Of a stretch of 64,000 nt of DNA, positions 14,464 through 51,619 are shown piece by piece. The number at the start of each line of letters is the position of its first letter. Positions within the stretch are counted from its first letter, which is position 1. This DNA is from Halogeometricum limi (lineage in GTDB: Archaea; Halobacteriota; Halobacteria; Halobacteriales; Haloferacaceae), in NCBI RefSeq assembly GCF_900115785.1, contig NZ_FOYS01000001.1, forward strand, positions 875,582 to 939,581, read 5' to 3'. Both the position numbers and the translations under genes were made by a program. The notes under the pieces were generated by a model. The model saw only the letters and a list, made by a program, of their open reading frames with translations, made no database searches and had not been told where the DNA came from.

Positions 14464-14954
14464 CCGCCGACGAAGCGCTGTACGACGACTTGGCGGGCGT
14501 CGTCGACCTGTTCGACGGCCTCTCGACGCGGGAGTTAGAACGCGCGCTCGAGGAACTCGCGTTCAAACAGGGTCGCGACGCCGACGCCGACGCGTTGGCG
14601 GCGGCCGTCGACGGTGCCGTCTCGGACTACTACCTCGCGACGGCGACGCACGAGGACGGCGAAGACGACGTCGAACTGGTCGTCCCGGGCCCCGTCGCGT
14701 TCCCGTCGCTGCCGGAGAACGCCGAGGACCTACCGCACATCTTGGACGTGGACGACCGGACGGTGGACGAGAGCGCGGTCACCGAGGCGACGCTCTCTCG
14801 ACTCCGCGAGGACGCCGACGCGGCCGTCGAGACCGGCGACGAGGGACGTCTCCGGCACCTCCTCGACGTGACGTACGACGTGGAACTGTGGGCGTCCGCC
14901 GACGTGGACGTGAGCAGCGTCCGGTCGCGTCTGGAGAGCGAACTCGACGAGTAG
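14460..14954 (+). CDS. Acidic hypothetical protein, translationally coupled to the glycosyltransferase
   Basis: GTG start overlapping the upstream TGA (GTGA). Sustained acidic coding frame of 164 aa. Confidence 0.45.
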   Translation: MTADEALYDDLAGVVDLFDGLSTRELERALEELAFKQGRDADADALAAAVDGAVSDYYLATATHEDGEDDVELVVPGPVAFPSLPENAEDLPHILDVDDRTVDESAVTEATLSRLREDADAAVETGDEGRLRHLLDVTYDVELWASADVDVSSVRSRLESELDE

Positions 14955-15042
14955 CACCGGTTCGGTTCGAGAGCGACTCTGCGGCACCCTCGGAGTTCGA
15001 CAGACGTGGCGTACTGACCACAGGAAACGCCGTCGGATTCAT

Positions 15043-15078
15043 CCCCGCGCTAAAGCACGGGGCTTTCTCCTTGATTTT
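15043..15078 (+). terminator. Candidate terminator: stem-loop CCCCG...CGGGG followed by a pyrimidine/T-rich tract (CTTTCTCCTTGATTTTCC)
   Basis: Lies about 90 nt downstream of the 14460-14954 gene. Archaeal terminators are oligo-T tracts, often after hairpins. Confidence 0.3.
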
Positions 15079-15310
15079 CCGGTAACCCCCGCTCGTTCGT
15101 TCCGGCTTCGAGTCGCTGAGTAGGTCGATAGACCGATGTGCCTGTGGCTCGCGGGCAGCGCTCGACGCGACGACTGATTCTCTCCTGTACCGCAGTCGGG
15201 GTCACGCTTCTGGATACGGTTCTCAAAGGCGCTTCGTGGCCCACAGTCATCGTCGCCCCCGATAGTGCACACGGAGTGATTTCGACGGGAGAAACGACGA
15301 ACCCGAGTAA

Positions 15311-15374
15311 TTAGACTAGTCTAAACATTATATTTGATAGAAGCTATTATATATTTCATCTAGTCATTGACTAG
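15311..15374 (+). promoter_or_regulatory. AT-rich promoter region. A perfect palindrome TTAGACTAGTCTAA (15311-15324) sits upstream of a TATA-like ATTATATAT, and a second palindrome CTAGTCAtTGACTAG (15360-15374) sits between the TATA and the ATG at 15381.
   Basis: Both palindromes share a GACTAG/CTAGTC core. Their positions correspond to activator (upstream of BRE/TATA) and repressor (TATA-to-TSS) operator locations in archaeal promoters. Confidence 0.45.
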
Positions 15375-15380
15375 CCGACG

Positions 15381-15632
15381 ATGGACGATACGACGCAGTC
15401 GAACTCGGAGCATCGATTCTCACGCAGAAGAGCGACTACTGCCGGTACAGAACTTGCCGTTTCTGGCATCGCCGGATGTACGGACAGCAGCGGCAGCACC
15501 GAAGTCGAACTCACGAGTGGCTCGACCAACGGGCGCACAACTGGAGACGGGCTTGTCGAGCGATTGTTCGGCGTGACGCAGGTCGAGGACCGTGCGCTCG
15601 GTCGCATCGGGGTGGTCGCCCATGGGGAGTGA
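15381..15632 (+). CDS. Small ORF (83 aa) with a Tat-like RRR motif and lipobox-like AGC. Possibly a secreted micro-protein or a remnant.
   Basis: Leaderless ATG about 27 nt after the TATA. It has lower GC3 than neighbouring genes and overlaps the DoxX start in another frame. Confidence 0.3.
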   Translation: MDDTTQSNSEHRFSRRRATTAGTELAVSGIAGCTDSSGSTEVELTSGSTNGRTTGDGLVERLFGVTQVEDRALGRIGVVAHGE

Positions 15633-16143
15633 AAAACCGAGCGTGTCTCGTCTGGTCGACGAGTCGGGAGCCGGACCCGGGAGACTAGCCACCGTTGCGC
15701 TGGTGGTTCTCCGTATTGGCCTCGGGTGGATTTTCTTCTATTCTGGGCTGACGAAAGTGCTCGACCCCGACTGGACCGCCTCGGGCTATCTGACCAACGC
15801 GGTGCCCGACGGAAACCCCTTCGCAGCCCTGTGGCCAGTGCTGGCGAACGTACCGCTCGTCGACGTGTTGGTTCAGTGGGGAATGGTGTTGACGGGTGTC
15901 GGGCTCATCGTCGGTGCGCTGGTTCGCTGGAACGCGTTCTGGGCTTCGTTCATGATGCTCACCTTCTGGGCGAGTAGCCTCCCGTTAGAGAACGGATTAC
16001 TCGTCGACAGCCACGTCATCTACATCATCGCTCTCACTGGTGTGGCGTCACTCGGCGTCGGTCGCGTCGCAGGCTTCGACGGGGTTATCGAATCGACGAG
16101 TCTCGTCAAACGCCACCCGCGACTACGCTATCTCCTCGGCTGA
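15622..16143 (+). CDS. DoxX-family membrane protein
   Basis: Four hydrophobic segments of DoxX-like topology (LRIGLGWIFFYSGLTK). Confidence 0.65.
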   Translation: MGSEKPSVSRLVDESGAGPGRLATVALVVLRIGLGWIFFYSGLTKVLDPDWTASGYLTNAVPDGNPFAALWPVLANVPLVDVLVQWGMVLTGVGLIVGALVRWNAFWASFMMLTFWASSLPLENGLLVDSHVIYIIALTGVASLGVGRVAGFDGVIESTSLVKRHPRLRYLLG

Positions 16144-16437
16144 CGTCTCTGAAAGCGAAACGCCGAACTTCACGAGAGAACCGCGCACCGTCTCGGTCCG
16201 AGTCGCCCCCAATACCGACCGGCCAGTGGCCGATACGCGACCTGTATTCGGCGCAGTCCGGACGAGCGATGGCGCACTGTGGACTCTCGAAAGAGCTGTT
16301 CGGTTCGGGTTACGTACTAGTCTCGACGGGGAATCGCGTCTGACTGGACCGGAGCCACCTGGGTCCCGTCCGCGGGCGGCGAGGTTCGCGGACGCCGCGA
16401 GAGCTAAGCCTAAGCCCCTCCGACAGTTCGAACCAGT

Positions 16438-17037
16438 ATGGACCTCTCGCGGGTGTCGTCGCACGACGCCGAGACGCTGACGGGTGCGGACCGGCAGGCG
16501 GCCGTCGTCGCCCCCATCCTCGTCCGCGACGGCGAGGACCACGTCCTGTTCACGAAGCGCGCGGACCACCTCGGCGAACACCCCGGGCAGATGAGTTTCC
16601 CCGGGGGGACGCGCGAACCGAGCGACGCGGACCTGCAAGCGACCGCACTCCGCGAGGCCGACGAAGAGATCGGACTGAAAGCGGACGAGGTCGAGTTCTA
16701 CGGCCGACTGGACGACATCGGCACGGTGACCGACTACTCGGTGACCCCGTTCGTCGCCCGCGTGCCCGACCGGACGTACGACCCCGACGAACGCGAAGTC
16801 GCCGAAATCGCCGTTCTCGCGGAGTCGGACCTCACGGACCTCTCGAACTACGAGTCCGAAGAGCGGATGCACCCGAAGTACGGCCAACACCGCCTGCACT
16901 TCTTCCACGTCGACGGCTACACCGTCTGGGGGGCGACCGGACGGATGCTCGTGCAACTCCTCGAACTCACGACCGACTGGGAGGCCCCGCCCGAACCCGA
17001 CAGGGTGGTCGACCCCGACGCGGACCTGCCTCTGTAG
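16438..17037 (+). CDS. NUDIX hydrolase (CoA pyrophosphatase-like)
   Basis: Nudix box GGTREPSDADLQATALREADEEIGL (Gx5Ex7REuxEExGu). Confidence 0.8.
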   Translation: MDLSRVSSHDAETLTGADRQAAVVAPILVRDGEDHVLFTKRADHLGEHPGQMSFPGGTREPSDADLQATALREADEEIGLKADEVEFYGRLDDIGTVTDYSVTPFVARVPDRTYDPDEREVAEIAVLAESDLTDLSNYESEERMHPKYGQHRLHFFHVDGYTVWGATGRMLVQLLELTTDWEAPPEPDRVVDPDADLPL

Positions 17038-17251
17038 CGCCGCCGTCGACGCGCCGTCCCGACCGCACGCCGCCCGGCCGGACGCCACCCCGAGCGCATG
17101 CCCACCGACCGCACGCTACCCGAGCGCAATACCTGCCGCCCCCCGACGAGTTTATCCCGCCCGCTGGGCAACAGGAGGCTACATGGTCGCACAGACGATT
17201 GATCGCGTTCCGCGACGACGATAGCCTCCCTCTCGTGAGTAGTGATATCCG

Positions 17252-24897: not shown

Positions 24898-25326
24898 TTA
24901 GAAGTCCTCTTCGATGACTTCGCCGACGGCGAAGTTCGACTTGACTTCCGTGACCTCTATCTTCACCCGGTCGCCGACTTCCGCGCCGGGGACGATGATG
25001 ACGTAACCGCGTTCGACGCGGGCGATACCGTCTCCTTGCTTTCCGATGTCTTCTATCTCCACGTACCGGAGTTCACCCACTTCGACGGGGGGTTGCGGTT
25101 CTGACGACGGCGTCGTCTGGGTAGTCGTCTCGCCGGACGACGACTCGTCGATTGCTTCACGAGAGATGAGAGCGACGCGGTACGTCTCGCCGGGTTCGAC
25201 GGTGCCGGCCTCGACTTCGCGCTTCGGAACTTCGACCACGTAGCGGTCGTCCTCCGCGCGCACGTCGGTGTTGAACAGACACAGGAGTTTATCTGAGATT
25301 TCCACCGTATAGACCTCCAGACGCAC
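24898..25326 (-). CDS. TRAM-domain protein (RNA-binding, cold-shock-like)
   Basis: C-terminal GELRYVEIEDIGKQGDGIARVERGYVIIVPGAEVGDRVKIEVTEV matches the TRAM domain. GTG start. Confidence 0.7.
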   Translation of the reverse strand: MRLEVYTVEISDKLLCLFNTDVRAEDDRYVVEVPKREVEAGTVEPGETYRVALISREAIDESSSGETTTQTTPSSEPQPPVEVGELRYVEIEDIGKQGDGIARVERGYVIIVPGAEVGDRVKIEVTEVKSNFAVGEVIEEDF

Positions 25327-27060: not shown

Positions 27061-27357
27061 CTACGTGTTGAGGAAGTAGACTTGCTTCCGAGCGTCTTTG
27101 AAACTGTAGCGCGACCCGACGAGGTCCGCCTCTTCGAGTCGGTTGAGCGCGTAGCGTACGGTCCGGTCGGGAAGCAGCGAGTCCTCGGCGAGTTGTCCCT
27201 GTGACAACGGTGCGTCGCCCTCTAACACTTTGGCGACGAGTTTCGCACTGGGAGGGAGTTCGCGGAGTCGCTCGCGGAACTCGGTCTCCGAGAGGGGGTC
27301 CTCACGGTTCATCTCTGCGGTAGTGGTGCTCATACTCCACGAGAACGCGTAGTCCAT
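27061..27357 (-). CDS. Winged helix-turn-helix transcriptional regulator
   Basis: wHTH pattern SQGQLAEDSLLPDRTVRYALNRLEEADLV. The start may be the internal ATG at 27333. Confidence 0.6.
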   Translation of the reverse strand: MDYAFSWSMSTTTAEMNREDPLSETEFRERLRELPPSAKLVAKVLEGDAPLSQGQLAEDSLLPDRTVRYALNRLEEADLVGSRYSFKDARKQVYFLNT

Positions 27358-27422
27358 GGTAAAGCTTGGCTACAAGTGTGTCAAAACAATCCAGACACAT
27401 AATACACAAATAAGGCCGTATA

Positions 27423-27863
27423 ATGTCTTCGCGGCGAACGGTTTTGTCGTCGCCGCGCGAGAGGGCGGTCGTGATTCCCGAATCGCACCGCGACATCTTC
27501 GAGAAGCAGTCGTTCGCACACCTGGCGACGGTCATGCCGGACGGGACGCCGCAGGTCACGCCCGTGTGGGTCGACCACGACGACGGCGAGTACGTCCTCC
27601 TCAACAGCGCACGCGGCCGACGAAAGGTGACGAACATCGAGCACGACCCGAAAGTGGGCGTCTCCGTCCTCGACCCCGACGACCCGTATCGCTACGTCTC
27701 CGTCCGAGGGGAGGCGGAGTTGGTCGACGACGGAGCGGTGGAGCACATCGACGCACTCGCAAAGCGGTACATGGGCGTCGACGAGTACCCCCACCACGGC
27801 GAGGAGTCCGGCGCGCGGGTCATCATCCGCGTTCCCACGGAGCACATCGTCACCAGCGGGTAG
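27423..27863 (+). CDS. PPOX-class (pyridoxamine 5'-phosphate oxidase-like) F420/FMN-binding protein
   Basis: Split-barrel family pattern (FAHLATVMPDGTPQVTPVW...VSVRGEAELV). Confidence 0.7.
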   Translation: MSSRRTVLSSPRERAVVIPESHRDIFEKQSFAHLATVMPDGTPQVTPVWVDHDDGEYVLLNSARGRRKVTNIEHDPKVGVSVLDPDDPYRYVSVRGEAELVDDGAVEHIDALAKRYMGVDEYPHHGEESGARVIIRVPTEHIVTSG

Positions 27864-49264: not shown

Positions 49265-49774
49265 ATGCGAATCGCAGTCGGTAGCGGAAATCCGGTCAAA
49301 CGGGACGCGACGGAACGGGTGTTCGACTCGGCGGCCGTCGTCGCCGAACCCGTCTCCTCTGGCGTCTCGGAACAGCCGACCGGTCACGACGAGACGCGGA
49401 CCGGCGCGGAGAACCGAGCGCTCGCCTGTCTCGACGCGGATGCCTACGACCTCGGCGTCGGCATCGAGGGCGGCGTCGCACGGTTCGCGGGCCGAGACGA
49501 CCTGTTTCTCGTCATGTGGGCGGCGGTCACCGACGGTACTCGCTGGGGGCGCGGGACGGGTCCGAGCCTCCGTCTCCCCGAGACCATCGCCGACAGAGTC
49601 GACGCCGGGGAGGAACTCGGCCCCGTGATGGACGACGTGCTCGGAACGAACGACGTCGCGAAGAAGCAGGGCGCGGCGGGCGCGTTCACGGCGGGGCGAC
49701 TCTCGCGAACCGACGCGCTCGAATCGGCCGTCGTCTCCGCCGCCGCGCCGTTTCTCTGCGACCTGTACGACTGA
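49265..49774 (+). CDS. Non-canonical purine NTP phosphatase (YjjX/DUF84 family)
   Basis: N-terminal MRIAVGSGNPVK and family length of about 170 aa. Confidence 0.7.
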   Translation: MRIAVGSGNPVKRDATERVFDSAAVVAEPVSSGVSEQPTGHDETRTGAENRALACLDADAYDLGVGIEGGVARFAGRDDLFLVMWAAVTDGTRWGRGTGPSLRLPETIADRVDAGEELGPVMDDVLGTNDVAKKQGAAGAFTAGRLSRTDALESAVVSAAAPFLCDLYD

Positions 49775-49783
49775 CCGATACGA

Positions 49784-51619
49784 CTAGTCCAGTTCGGCGG
49801 TCTCACCGTCTCTGGACTCTCTCACGTCCCTGCTCTCTTCGACGGCCGTCGTGAGCGAGACGTTCAGGCCGAGCATCGAGGCGTACCCGCCGACGACGGT
49901 GATGACGTTCTTTACCGCGTGGTCCAACACGGCCGCGCCGATGGCGACGGGGTAGCCGACGGGCGTGAGGCCGATGACGAGAAGCGTGAACGCGCCCTCG
50001 TAGAGTCCGACGCCGCCGGGCGAGAGGGGGAGCACCTTCGCGAGGTTGCCGACGCTGACGGCGAAGAAACTCACCGAGACGAGTTCCACCGTCGCGAGGC
50101 CGGGGTCGAACGCCTGCAGGACGAGCATCGCCGTCACCACGTCGAGCGTCCAGATGACGAGGCTGGAGAGGCCGACGCGTGCGAACCCGCGTCTCGTCCC
50201 GGCGACGGACTGCAGGTCGTCGACGAAGCGTTCGACGATGCCCGCGACGAACTCGGCGTAGGAGTCGGAACTCGCCCGGCGAACGAGCGACCCCGCGAGG
50301 TTGCGGTCGGACTGCGCGGAGGCGACGATGGCCGTCACGGCGACGAGGGCGGCGACGGCGACGAAGACGGCGACGCCGACGGCGACCTGTCCGGCGCCCT
50401 CCGCGCCGACGACCGTCTCCGCCAACTCGGCGGTCTGACCCGTCACCGTGTACCCCACGAGGACGATTCCCGCCAGTAAGGTGATGGTCAGGAGGTCGAA
50501 CACGCGTTCGGCCGCGAGCGACGCGAACCCGGAGGGGTACGGGATTCCGCGTCTGGCTTTCACCACGTACGCGCGGATGAAGTCACCCATCCGCGCGGGG
50601 AACACGAGGTTCCCGGTCTGACTGATGAACACCGCGCCGGTGAGGAACGTCCACCGCTCTTCGAACCCCAACTCTTCGAGGATGTCGCGGTAGCGGACGC
50701 CCCTGAGAGGCCACGAGAGCACGTAGACGAGGGCGGCGACGCCGACGAGGACGGGGTCGGCTTGCTGCATCTCCGTCAGGACGGCACCGAAGTCGAGATA
50801 CTGCGTCATCAGGAGGACGGCGAGGACGGTGAGCACCGCGCCGGCGACGAGTGCGACGCGTTGGGTGATGCGCGGGCGAACGGCGAGTTGCCACCACGTC
50901 CTGACGATTTGGCTCCCCATCCCGAACACGTCGCGGACGAGGTCCACTTTCGTGTCGCCCTTCGGCGTCCACGACACGGGGAACTCGTCGATGCGGTAGC
51001 CCGCACGCTGTGCGCGGACGAGCATCTCCGTGTCCCAGAACCAGTGTTCGTCCTCGACGTCGTCGCGTAACTCCTCGAACACCTCGCGACTGAACGCCTT
51101 GAACCCGCACTGGTGGTCGCGGATGCTCGACCCCAAGAGCAGGCGGACGAACAGGTTGAATCCGCGACTCGGGACGCCGCGCTTCGTCGGCCGGTCGGCG
51201 ATTCGGCCGGGCATCCACCGCGACCCGGTGGCGACGTCGTACCGGCCCGAGCGGACCCGTTCGACCAACTCTTCGAGGTGCTTCATGTCCGTCGCGAGGT
51301 CGGTGTCGAAGTAGACGAGAACGTCACCCTCGGCGGCCGCGAAGGCGTGTTCGAGTGCGCCGCCGCGACCCAGTCGTCGGTCGCTGTGGAAGTGTCGAAC
51401 TCTGTCGTCCGCGGCGGCCATCGCCTCGGCCAACTCCGGCGTTCGGTCGTCACAGCCGTCTTCGGCGACGATGACTTCGTACGTGCCCGACGGCAGGAAC
51501 CGAGAGAGCGTCCGGAGCGTCGTCTCCACCGTCGACTCGATGGTCTCCGCCTCGTTGTACGCGGGGAGGACGACGCTCACTTCGACCCCTGCGGACTGGT
51601 CGGTGGTCGGGCGACCCAT
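49784..51619 (-). CDS. GT2 glycosyltransferase fused to a flippase-like (LPG-synthase-TM-like) domain
   Basis: N-terminal VSVVLPAYNE...DGCDD...DTD GT-A motifs, followed by about 8 TM helices. Confidence 0.75.
   Translation of the reverse strand: MGRPTTDQSAGVEVSVVLPAYNEAETIESTVETTLRTLSRFLPSGTYEVIVAEDGCDDRTPELAEAMAAADDRVRHFHSDRRLGRGGALEHAFAAAEGDVLVYFDTDLATDMKHLEELVERVRSGRYDVATGSRWMPGRIADRPTKRGVPSRGFNLFVRLLLGSSIRDHQCGFKAFSREVFEELRDDVEDEHWFWDTEMLVRAQRAGYRIDEFPVSWTPKGDTKVDLVRDVFGMGSQIVRTWWQLAVRPRITQRVALVAGAVLTVLAVLLMTQYLDFGAVLTEMQQADPVLVGVAALVYVLSWPLRGVRYRDILEELGFEERWTFLTGAVFISQTGNLVFPARMGDFIRAYVVKARRGIPYPSGFASLAAERVFDLLTITLLAGIVLVGYTVTGQTAELAETVVGAEGAGQVAVGVAVFVAVAALVAVTAIVASAQSDRNLAGSLVRRASSDSYAEFVAGIVERFVDDLQSVAGTRRGFARVGLSSLVIWTLDVVTAMLVLQAFDPGLATVELVSVSFFAVSVGNLAKVLPLSPGGVGLYEGAFTLLVIGLTPVGYPVAIGAAVLDHAVKNVITVVGGYASMLGLNVSLTTAVEESRDVRESRDGETAELD

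What the first reader, a model, noticed from the sequence alone, without database searches (positions are those of the whole stretch)
14955..16440. Lower-GC island of about 1.5 kb around a DoxX gene, with about 640 bp and 290 bp of non-coding DNA
Intergenic spacers in this window are mostly under 100 bp. Here a DoxX gene with atypically low GC3 is flanked by long non-coding stretches containing AT-rich palindromes and a short ORF with unusual codon usage. This looks like an acquired or decaying accessory segment, or it hosts unannotated small RNAs.
Basis: seen in the sequence. Interest (0 to 1): 0.55.

Follow-up and report, generated by a model that had tools for sequence, protein, structure and literature searches.

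The report
Species-specific mosaic insertion carrying DoxX
The low-GC stretch is a 1.4-kb piece of plasmid-like foreign DNA found only in Halogeometricum limi, made of an insertion-sequence end, the promoter and first 57 codons of a metal-transporter gene, and one intact DoxX membrane-protein gene; this is an ordinary kind of genomic scar, with a possible case of promoter capture.

Summary
Window 14955-16440 is the lowest-GC 1.5-kb stretch of the window (0.603 against a mean of 0.680). The DoxX gene has the lowest GC3 of 57 genes (0.74; z = -3.3). The palindromes and the short ORF are real.

The organism is Halogeometricum limi, not Haloferax. In five other Halogeometricum genomes and five other genera the DUF7109 and Nudix genes are adjacent, so about 1.44 kb (14955 to about 16392) is a lineage-specific insertion.

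It is a mosaic of three recognisable pieces:
- **15032-15088 (minus strand):** a solo left end of an IS1341-type IS200/IS605 element.
- **15263-15558:** the promoter, a SirR-type box (TTAGACTAGTCTAA) and the first 57 codons of a ZnuA-family metal ABC transporter lipoprotein gene. The "short ORF" is its truncated relic.
- **15605-16144:** an intact DoxX gene. Its orthologues elsewhere sit next to a FilR1/HalX/kinase module that is missing here.

CTAG is about 30-fold depleted in the rest of the window but not in the island.

I infer, without a test, that DoxX is now transcribed from the captured metal-responsive promoter. I found no evidence for small-RNA genes. This is a new example of a known kind, of low to moderate interest.

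The parts
14955..16392 (.). The inserted segment as a whole (about 1.44 kb), lying between the stop codon of the DUF7109 gene and the native upstream region of the Nudix gene.
   Evidence: DUF7109 and Nudix are adjacent, 43-400 bp apart, in L001-L006 and L024-L027. DNA homology to the relatives resumes at 16393. GC is 0.60. It holds 5 of the window's 11 CTAG sites.
14955..15031 (.). 78 nt of unassigned DNA between the DUF7109 stop and the IS end. It lies on the interior side of the IS end, so it could be residual IS interior.
   Evidence: No significant match to any fetched locus. In alignment A7 it shows no clear similarity to the tnpB 5' regions of L016 and L017.
15032..15088 (-). Solo left end (LE) of an IS1341-type IS200/IS605 element. 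On the minus strand it reads TTAC|CGGAAAATCAAGGAGAAAGCCCCGTGCTTTAGCGCGGGGATGAATCCGAC, with an 8-bp hairpin. On the plus strand the hairpin is followed by a T-rich tract.
   Evidence: 76 haloarchaeal plasmid records carry it at 126 places, with identity up to 100%. In L017 and L016 it lies about 95 nt upstream of tnpB, with the sot0042 RNA at the other end of the element. In L011, L012 and L015 an RE-like sot0042/HgcC match lies 300-600 nt away on the same side. The hairpin pairs 8/8 on the minus strand but only 6-7/8 on the plus strand. TTAC flanks it.
15089..15262 (.). 174 nt of unassigned non-coding DNA between the IS end and the transporter promoter fragment.
   Evidence: No match in plasmids, phages or fetched loci. 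No codon periodicity.
15263..15380 (+). Captured promoter region of a metal ABC transporter operon. It holds a SirR-type box ATTAGACTAGTCTAAA (15310-15325; core 15311-15324), a TATA-like TATTATATATTT (15345-15356, at -36 to -25 from the ATG) and a second palindrome CTAGTCATTGACTAG (15360-15374).
   Evidence: blastn identity is 67-78% to the promoters of SBP genes on six haloarchaeal megaplasmids. In alignment A5 ATTAG.....TCTAA, the TATA region and CTAGCCGACGATGG are conserved. The pattern TTWGANNNNTCWAA occurs once in 64 kb (0 expected) and once at the same place in 5 of the 6 SBP loci. It matches 11 of the 12 specified positions of the Haloferax volcanii SirR motif TTTwGAnnnnTCwAAA (PMC10783522).
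15381..15632 (+). An 83-codon relic ORF. Codons 1-57 are the Tat signal, lipobox (IAGC) and linker of a ZnuA-family substrate-binding lipoprotein. The rest is read-through across the junction. Its stop overlaps the DoxX start (ATGGGGAGTGA).
   Evidence: tblastn of the SBPs matches residues 1-57 to 15381-15551 at 51-54% identity, E = 5e-16 to 6e-15. Protein alignment A6 confirms it. The full proteins are 349-367 aa with a ZnuA domain. No Pfam hit. GC3 is 0.67 with weak periodicity. The only database match is itself.
15622..16143 (+). An intact DoxX-family membrane protein gene of 173 aa.
   Evidence: Pfam DoxX, 5e-8. 99% identical to H. limi DoxX, and 59-69% identical to full-length orthologues of 170-174 aa. 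It keeps all 52 invariant alignment columns. DNA homology to orthologue L009 begins at 15605, only 17 nt upstream of the ATG.
16144..16392 (.). 249 nt of unassigned non-coding DNA downstream of DoxX. It contains one more ACTAGTC (16316-16322) and no oligo-T terminator.
   Evidence: No matches. No terminator-like site. GC is flat across codon phases.

Best explanation
**What it is (shown).** Window 14955 to about 16392 is a 1.44-kb insertion specific to the Halogeometricum limi lineage. It sits in the otherwise short spacer between the DUF7109 and Nudix genes. Its composition resembles haloarchaeal megaplasmid DNA, and it is a patchwork of unrelated fragments:
- a solo left end of an IS1341-type IS200/IS605 element;
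- the promoter, operator and first 57 codons of a ZnuA-family metal ABC transporter lipoprotein gene;
- an intact DoxX gene that has been cut away from its usual neighbours and from its own upstream region.

**How it probably works (inferred).** Homology of DoxX to its orthologues starts only 17 nt before its ATG, and there is no AT-rich promoter-like sequence in the 240 nt before it. DoxX is therefore most likely transcribed from the captured transporter promoter.
- The transcript would be leaderless, starting at about ATG 15381, with the TATA-like box at -36 to -25.
- It would run through the 83-codon relic ORF, whose stop overlaps the DoxX start codon, which would allow translational coupling.
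- The promoter carries a conserved SirR-type (DtxR-family) box at -71 to -56. DoxX expression is therefore predicted to respond to metal availability, probably manganese, through a chromosomal SirR acting in trans.
- The T-rich tract after the IS hairpin may now terminate the upstream operon.

The segment was probably acquired by illegitimate recombination with plasmid-like DNA and then trimmed by deletions. No integrase, tRNA or target duplication marks the event.
For: **Insertion**
- DUF7109 and Nudix are adjacent in H. pallidum, H. luteum, Halogeometricum sp. S1BR25-6 and two H. borinquense genomes.
- They are also adjacent in Halobellus, Halegenticoccus, Haladaptatus and two MAGs.

**Foreign composition**
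- The island has the lowest GC in the window.
- DoxX GC3 is 0.74, z = -3.3, whereas DoxX orthologues take the GC3 of their hosts (0.91-0.93, or 0.70 on a low-GC contig).
- The plasmid SBP genes have GC 0.57-0.63.
- CTAG counts are 5 observed against 5.1 expected in the island, and 6 against 184 in the rest of the window. Binomial P = 2e-6.
- Published work reports CTAG depletion in haloarchaeal chromosomes, weaker on plasmids (PMC6471742).

**IS left end:**

**Transporter fragment:**

**SirR-type box:**

**DoxX intact and separated from its usual partners:**

**No terminator between 15381 and 15622**
- The scan found no terminator-like site.
- The sequence has no T-run longer than 3.
Against: - There are no expression data, so the transcription start, co-transcription with DoxX and metal regulation are all inferred.
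- The SirR-type box lies upstream of the TATA-like box, which is not the classical position for an archaeal repressor.
- No DtxR-family regulator gene lies in this window. I could not check the rest of the genome.
- About 500 bp of the island (14955-15031, 15089-15262, 16144-16392) matches nothing, so the history is incomplete.
- No donor with the same arrangement was found in plasmids, phages, viral contigs or metagenomes.
- The IS end is a single 57-nt remnant. Its identification rests on homology to copies elsewhere, not on a transposase here.
Confidence: 0.75

Rival explanations
1. The segment is ancestral and was deleted in the relatives. On this view it is a conserved accessory locus that has been lost repeatedly.
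For: A second, unrelated DoxX-family gene (31% identity) sits in the neighbouring Nudix-DUF7388 spacer of H. luteum. DoxX genes therefore do come and go around this locus.
Against: The segment is absent from all ten compared genomes, including five in the same genus. This would need many independent precise deletions. GC, GC3 and CTAG content are all foreign to the host. Orthologues of this DoxX lie in an entirely different context.
Confidence: 0.03
2. The long spacers host functional small RNAs. Candidates are a PATE-like RNA from the IS hairpin, or a regulatory 5' leader or riboswitch in front of DoxX.
For: RNAs derived from IS1341 ends and PATEs are expressed in Halobacterium, and overexpressing them affects growth (PMC4615843). 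The hairpin region gives a weak HgcC match on the minus strand (14.3 bits, E = 2.8).
Against: No Rfam family reaches threshold in the region or in the window. The left end lacks the RE/omega-RNA partner found in copies elsewhere. The folds are no more stable than shuffled sequence (z = -0.5 to +0.7). The DoxX 'leader' is explained by homology to a coding sequence. The upstream regions of DoxX orthologues share no structure or sequence with it.
Confidence: 0.08
3. The 83-codon ORF is a genuine gene for a small secreted lipoprotein or peptide co-expressed with DoxX, not a relic.
For: The ORF is open, keeps its ATG, the twin-arginine motif (SRRR) and the lipobox (IAGC). It overlaps the DoxX start in a coupling-like arrangement. 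An automatic gene caller called it.
Against: It lacks the entire ZnuA domain. Codon periodicity is weak, with GC3 0.67. The hydrophobic core of the signal has acquired a glutamate (TELAV where the homologues have AGLLA). The last 26 codons match nothing. No protein of this form exists elsewhere among 5.8 billion sequences.
Confidence: 0.12
4. The whole island, DoxX included, is transcriptionally silent junk on its way to deletion.
For: DoxX has lost its native upstream region and its usual regulatory neighbours. The fragments around it are clearly decayed.
Against: DoxX is full length and keeps all 52 positions invariant among orthologues. An apparently intact promoter lies 240 nt upstream with no terminator in between.
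Confidence: 0.15

Closest known systems
IS200/IS605-family elements of the IS1341 type and their deletion derivatives (PATEs) in haloarchaea; the RE-side RNAs are Rfam sot0042 (RF02656) and HgcC (RF00062)
   Same: The 57-nt element at 15032-15088 is 87-100% identical to the tnpB-proximal end of such elements in Haloferax gibbonsii and Halorubrum ezzemoulense. It has the strand-specific subterminal hairpin and is flanked by TTAC.
   Different: Only the left end is present. There is no tnpB, no tnpA and no right end or omega-RNA in the window. It is a dead remnant, not a mobile element or an RNA gene.
Haloarchaeal megaplasmid operon: ZnuA-family substrate-binding lipoprotein, ATPase, permease and DtxR-family regulator, with a SirR-type operator
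   Same: The promoter, the TTAGA-N4-TCTAA box, the start codon and the first 57 codons are homologous (67-78% DNA identity, 51-54% protein identity). The regulator of those operons carries the Fe_dep_repress, Fe_dep_repr_C and FeoA domains. The box fits the published H. volcanii SirR motif.
   Different: Everything after codon 57 is missing: the ZnuA domain, ATPase, permease and regulator. A DoxX gene follows instead.
DoxX family (PF07681) membrane proteins, including the orthologue group next to FilR1-like/HalX/HisKA_4TM modules in Halomarina, Halegenticoccus and MAGs
   Same: Full-length, 59-69% identical to the four orthologues whose gene context was read, with the conserved core and C-terminal PRLRYLLG retained.
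   Different: In four of four other contexts the gene is divergently paired with a three-gene regulatory module across a 320-450 bp spacer. Here that module and spacer are absent, and a foreign promoter fragment sits upstream. The biochemical function of this group is unknown.
Classical genomic islands (integrase plus tRNA attachment site plus direct repeats)
   Same: Atypical composition and presence in one lineage only.
   Different: No tRNA in the window, no integrase, and no convincing flanking repeats. It is also far smaller than typical islands.

Membership tests
DoxX (Pfam PF07681) | Match to the family profile above the curated threshold | tested here: met
   33.9 bits against a cut-off of 23.6, E = 5e-8.
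DoxX (Pfam PF07681) | Full-length protein with conserved positions intact relative to orthologues | tested here: met
   173 aa against 170-179 aa for the aligned orthologues. All 52 invariant columns are retained.
IS200/IS605 (IS1341-type) element | Subterminal imperfect hairpin on the top strand at the left end, next to a short target (TTAC-like) | tested here: met
   An 8-bp hairpin with a G-T pair on the minus strand only, in 8 copies. TTAC lies immediately outside in 6 of 8 copies, including the window.
IS200/IS605 (IS1341-type) element | tnpB gene, with or without tnpA, inside the element | tested here: not met
   tblastn of two TnpB proteins and one TnpA against the window gave no hit at E <= 0.01. 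Intact copies elsewhere do have tnpB.
IS200/IS605 (IS1341-type) element | Right end with the sot0042/HgcC-type (omega RNA) structure | tested here: not met
   No Rfam match at gathering score in the window. No RE-like sequence by blastn. The only match is a sub-threshold HgcC hit on the left-end hairpin itself.
ZnuA/TroA-family substrate-binding protein | ZnuA domain (PF01297) | tested here: not met
   No Pfam hit for the 83-aa ORF. Homology is limited to residues 1-57, the signal and linker. Full-length homologues carry the domain.
SirR-type (DtxR-family) operator | Palindrome fitting TTTwGAnnnnTCwAAA in a metal-transporter promoter | tested here: met
   ATTAGACTAGTCTAAA matches 11 of the 12 specified positions. 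It is unique in the window (0 expected) and conserved at the same place in 5 of 6 homologous promoters.
SirR-type (DtxR-family) operator | Binding by a DtxR-family regulator and metal-dependent regulation | not testable with these tools
   This needs ChIP, EMSA or expression data. No regulator gene lies in the window.
tRNA-linked integrative genomic island | Integrase, tRNA attachment site and flanking direct repeats | tested here: not met
   No tRNA. No ORF in the island matches an integrase family. The only boundary-near repeat, GTTCGGTTCG, is at chance level and lies 85 nt inside the right junction.
Known small-RNA or riboswitch families (Rfam 15) | Covariance-model match at or near the gathering score | tested here: not met
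   The best hits score 14-17 bits against gathering scores of 50-106. No match anywhere in the window at gathering score.

The most novel reading that the evidence does not exclude
An intact DoxX gene has been rewired by fragment capture. It now sits behind the promoter, SirR-type operator and signal-peptide leader of a lost metal-uptake operon. A quinone- or thiol-related membrane protein would then be expressed under manganese/metal limitation and translationally coupled to an 83-residue Tat-lipobox peptide. This would be a natural example of regulatory innovation by illegitimate recombination in an archaeon.
Probability: 0.3. Interest if true: 0.4.

Novelty: new member of a known kind. Interest (0 to 1): 0.22.

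Why it matters
- **Annotation.** It explains three oddities in the H. limi genome:
  - The 83-aa "gene" is a transporter relic.
  - The conserved 55-nt hairpin is an IS200/IS605 left end, not an sRNA or a terminator of native origin.
  - The DoxX start is probably ATG 15622, giving 173 aa rather than the deposited 146 aa.
- **Foreign-DNA marker.** In haloarchaea, local absence of CTAG depletion flags recently acquired DNA as sharply as GC does.
- **Testable hypothesis.** It predicts metal-responsive expression of a DoxX protein from a captured SirR-type promoter. This is cheap to test and would illustrate regulatory rewiring in archaea.
- **Beyond that,** it is an ordinary strain-specific insertion.

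Tried and rejected
- **Rfam scans** of the region at E <= 10 and of the whole window at gathering score gave only chance-level hits.
- **tRNA scan** found none.
- **Flanking repeats.** The 10-nt direct repeat GTTCGGTTCG (14960 and 16298) and the short inverted repeats are at chance level. They do not coincide with the right junction or with the relatives' spacers.
- **Relic of the usual DoxX neighbours.** I tested whether 14955-15300 is a relic of the FilR1/HalX/kinase module. tblastn was negative, and the upstream regions do not align beyond AT-rich similarity.
- **Transporter homology past codon 57.** MAFFT suggested it might extend to the DoxX start (HG...), but tblastn does not support it, so I dropped the idea.
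- **Homologues of the 83-aa ORF.** The 5.8-billion-protein search found only the ORF itself.
- **A donor with the same arrangement.** I found none in plasmids, phages, viral contigs or metagenome contigs.
- **The H. luteum DoxX next to Nudix** is a 31%-identical paralogue, not the same gene.
- **Sigma-70-type promoter and terminator scan.** The two promoter-like hits only reflect the AT-rich archaeal promoter, and no terminator was found.
- **H. limi DoxX by exact look-up** is not on record under its 146-aa annotation.
Full report
**1. The observation**

The stretch 14955-16440 has GC 0.603. Only 0.1% of equally long windows in the 64 kb are as low; the mean is 0.680 and the minimum 0.600, at 14863. 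The most AT-rich 80 bp of the whole window (GC 0.30) is at 15291-15370.

The coding gene is a DoxX-family protein at 15622-16143 (Pfam 33.9 bits against a cut-off of 23.6). Its GC3 is 0.736, against 0.856 +/- 0.036 for 56 other genes. That is the lowest in the window, z = -3.3.

The flanks 14955-15621 and 16144-16437 show no codon periodicity. The palindromes TTAGACTAGTCTAA (15311-15324) and CTAGTCATTGACTAG (15360-15374) and the 83-codon ORF (15381-15632) are all present.

**2. The organism**

The Nudix protein next door is 100% identical to that of Halogeometricum limi. A Logan assembly contig from run SRR4159465 is identical to the window over 6.6 kb. The genus is Halogeometricum, not Haloferax.

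**3. It is an insertion**

The order MFS, glycosyltransferase-like gene, DUF7109, Nudix, DUF7388 is conserved. DUF7109 is followed directly by Nudix, 43-400 bp away, in all of these:
- H. pallidum, Halobellus rufus, Halegenticoccus soli, Haladaptatus and two MAGs;
- H. luteum, Halogeometricum sp. S1BR25-6 and two H. borinquense genomes.

DNA homology to these relatives resumes at 16393 (CGCCGCGAGAGCTAAG...). So about 1.44 kb (14955-16392) is present only in H. limi. A single gain is far more parsimonious than ten losses.

**4. The composition is foreign**

- **GC3.** Orthologues of this DoxX take the GC3 of their hosts: 0.91-0.93 in high-GC genomes and 0.70 on a low-GC Halegenticoccus contig. 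Low GC3 is therefore not a property of the family.
- **CTAG.** This tetramer is known to be depleted in all haloarchaeal chromosomes, and less so on plasmids (PMC6471742). Outside the island the window has 6 CTAG against 184 expected from base composition. Inside the island it has 5 against 5.1 expected (binomial P = 2e-6).
- **Plasmid-like GC.** Megaplasmid genes homologous to part of the island have GC 0.57-0.63, like the island itself.

**5. What the pieces are**

A blastn search of the island against PLSDB plasmids gave two unrelated sets of hits.

*(a) Window 15032-15088: an IS left end.*
- The element matches 76 haloarchaeal plasmid records at 126 places, with identity up to 100%. It also matches Halorubrum tailed virus DL1 and one Deinococcus plasmid, always in unannotated DNA.
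- Conservation is confined to about 55 nt.
- In Haloferax gibbonsii pHGLR1 the element lies about 95 nt upstream of an intact tnpB gene (OrfB_IS605 plus Cas12f1-like TNB). That gene's far end carries the sot0042 RNA at 144 bits.
- In Halorubrum ezzemoulense it precedes a frameshifted copy of the same tnpB, again with sot0042 (161 bits).
- In Halomontanus, pNRC200 and Haladaptatus DYSN1, an RE-like sot0042/HgcC match lies 300-600 nt away on the same side. These are PATE-like deletion derivatives, of the kind described for Halobacterium and Haloquadratum (PMC4615843).
- On the minus strand the element reads TTAC|CGGAAAATCAAGGAGAAAGCCCCGTGCTTTAGCGCGGGGATGAATCCGAC. The 8-bp hairpin pairs fully on that strand in 7 of 8 copies, using G-T pairs, and less well on the other strand.
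- These are the features of an IS200/IS605 left end. In the window it stands alone, with no tnpB, tnpA or right end.
- The interior of the lost element would have pointed towards DUF7109, and only 78 nt remain there.

*(b) Window 15263-15558: a metal-transporter promoter and 5' coding fragment.*
- The fragment is 67-78% identical to the promoter and 5' coding region of 'metal ABC transporter substrate-binding protein' genes. These are on megaplasmids of Haladaptatus, Halocatena, Halomicrobium, Natrinema, Halorubrum and H. borinquense.
- There the gene heads an operon of SBP (ZnuA domain), ATPase and permease. In five of the six loci a DtxR-family regulator follows; the Haladaptatus one carries Fe_dep_repress, Fe_dep_repr_C and FeoA domains.
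- The alignment keeps the box ATTAG.....TCTAA, an AT-rich TATA-like block and CTAGCCGACGATGG with the start codon.
- The 83-codon ORF begins at that start codon. Residues 1-57 are the twin-arginine signal, lipobox and Ser/Thr/Gly linker of the SBP (51-54% identity, E about 1e-15). Nothing beyond is significantly similar. The 'short ORF with unusual codon usage' is thus a truncated gene relic that reads on across a junction.

*(c) Window 15605-16144: the DoxX gene.*
- Homology to DoxX orthologues starts 17 nt before the ATG at 15622.
- The protein is full length and retains all 52 columns invariant among eight orthologues.
- In four of four other genomes the orthologue is divergently paired with a FilR1-like regulator, a HalX response regulator and a HisKA_4TM kinase, across a 320-450 bp spacer.
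- No trace of that module or spacer is in the window.

*Unassigned.* About 500 bp (14955-15031, 15089-15262, 16144-16392) matches nothing.

**6. How it most likely works**

*Shown:* the anatomy described above.

*Inferred:*
- DoxX has lost its own upstream region, and there is no AT-rich promoter-like sequence between 15400 and 15621.
- The captured promoter looks intact. TATTATATATTT lies at -36 to -25 from ATG 15381, which fits a leaderless transcript as is usual in haloarchaea (general knowledge).
- There is no oligo-T terminator before DoxX.
- The relic ORF stops inside ATGGGGAGTGA, overlapping the DoxX start.
- DoxX is therefore probably the second cistron of a chimeric transcript.
- The box ATTAGACTAGTCTAAA (15310-15325) matches 11 of the 12 specified positions of TTTwGAnnnnTCwAAA. 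That motif was found at SirR ChIP-seq peaks upstream of Mn-uptake genes in Haloferax volcanii (PMC10783522).
- The core pattern occurs once in the window (0 in 100 shuffles) and once at the same position in 5 of the 6 homologous promoters.
- I therefore predict metal-responsive, probably Mn-responsive, control of DoxX by a SirR-type regulator encoded elsewhere in the genome.
- The second palindrome lies between the TATA-like box and the ATG. Only its right half is conserved, so I give it no specific role.
- The T-rich tract after the IS hairpin on the plus strand, 90-130 nt past the DUF7109 stop, may act as terminator of the upstream operon.

**7. Rivals**

- Ancestral segment lost elsewhere: very unlikely.
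- Hidden small RNAs: no support from Rfam, folding or comparison.
- The 83-aa ORF as a real small lipoprotein gene: possible but unlikely.
- A silent island: possible.

Details and refutation tests are given in the Rival explanations section.

**8. Comparison and novelty**

Each part belongs to a known kind: an IS200/IS605 end, a ZnuA-type operon promoter with a DtxR-family box, and a DoxX gene. Small lineage-specific insertions built from such debris are common in haloarchaea.

Membership tests come out as follows:
- DoxX: met.
- IS element: hairpin and target met, transposase and right end not met, so it is a remnant and not an element.
- ZnuA protein: not met, so it is a relic.
- SirR-type operator: sequence criterion met, binding untestable here.
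- Integrative island and Rfam RNA: not met.

The specific chimera of promoter, relic leader and DoxX has not been described as far as the searched collections show. I rate it a new member of a known kind, with interest about 0.2. The promoter-capture reading would raise that modestly if confirmed.

Noticed in passing
L024 3647-4171 (Halogeometricum luteum), equivalent to the window spacer 17038-17251: H. luteum carries a different DoxX-family gene (31% identical, host-like high GC) on the opposite strand in the next spacer, between Nudix and DUF7388. No other Halogeometricum genome examined has one there. Two unrelated DoxX genes have therefore landed within 1 kb of the same Nudix gene in sister species.
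   Followed up: partly
L007 975-4522, L008 867-4522, L009 2016-5522, L010 2002-5513: Orthologues of the window's DoxX are always divergently paired with a FilR1-like (HVO_A0261_N) regulator, a HalX response regulator and a HisKA_4TM histidine kinase, across a 320-450 bp spacer that contains GC-rich palindromes (GGACGCGTCC, GTCCGA..TCGGAC). This looks like a conserved four-gene sensory unit of unknown function.
   Followed up: partly
window 15622 versus 15703: The deposited H. limi DoxX is 146 aa (it starts at Val28, GTG 15703). Orthologues are 170-174 aa, and DNA homology begins 17 nt upstream of ATG 15622, so the 173-aa start is more likely.
   Followed up: partly
window 49782-49789: The only other GACTAGTC in the window lies at the junction of two convergent genes (49265-49774 on + and 49784-51619 on -) and contains the TAG stop of the minus-strand gene. 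It accounts for one of the six CTAG sites outside the island.
   Followed up: no
one search hit H73 (Deinococcus wulumuqiensis plasmid NZ_CP031163.1, 63890-63930) and L013 2501-2543 (Halorubrum tailed virus DL1): The haloarchaeal IS1341-type end hairpin also matches a bacterial Deinococcus plasmid (86% over 44 nt). It also matches an intergenic site near an integrase fragment in a haloarchaeal tailed virus, and the virus copy has an RE-like tail (GGGGAGGATGTCAAT).
   Followed up: no
window 24898-25326 (minus strand) and 27350-27429: A second gene has GC3 as low as DoxX (0.74), next to a 561-bp gap in my crude gene call. The second most AT-rich 80-bp stretch of the window (GC 0.375) is at 27350-27429. 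These may mark other atypical or acquired spots.
   Followed up: no
L018 2501-2554 (Halobaculum limi plasmid) and window 15032-15088: Solo copies of the IS left end tend to sit just past gene 3' ends. In L018 the copy lies between two convergent genes; in the window it is 78 nt after the DUF7109 stop. On the opposite strand the copies present a hairpin plus a T-rich tract, so they might be co-opted as terminators.
   Followed up: no
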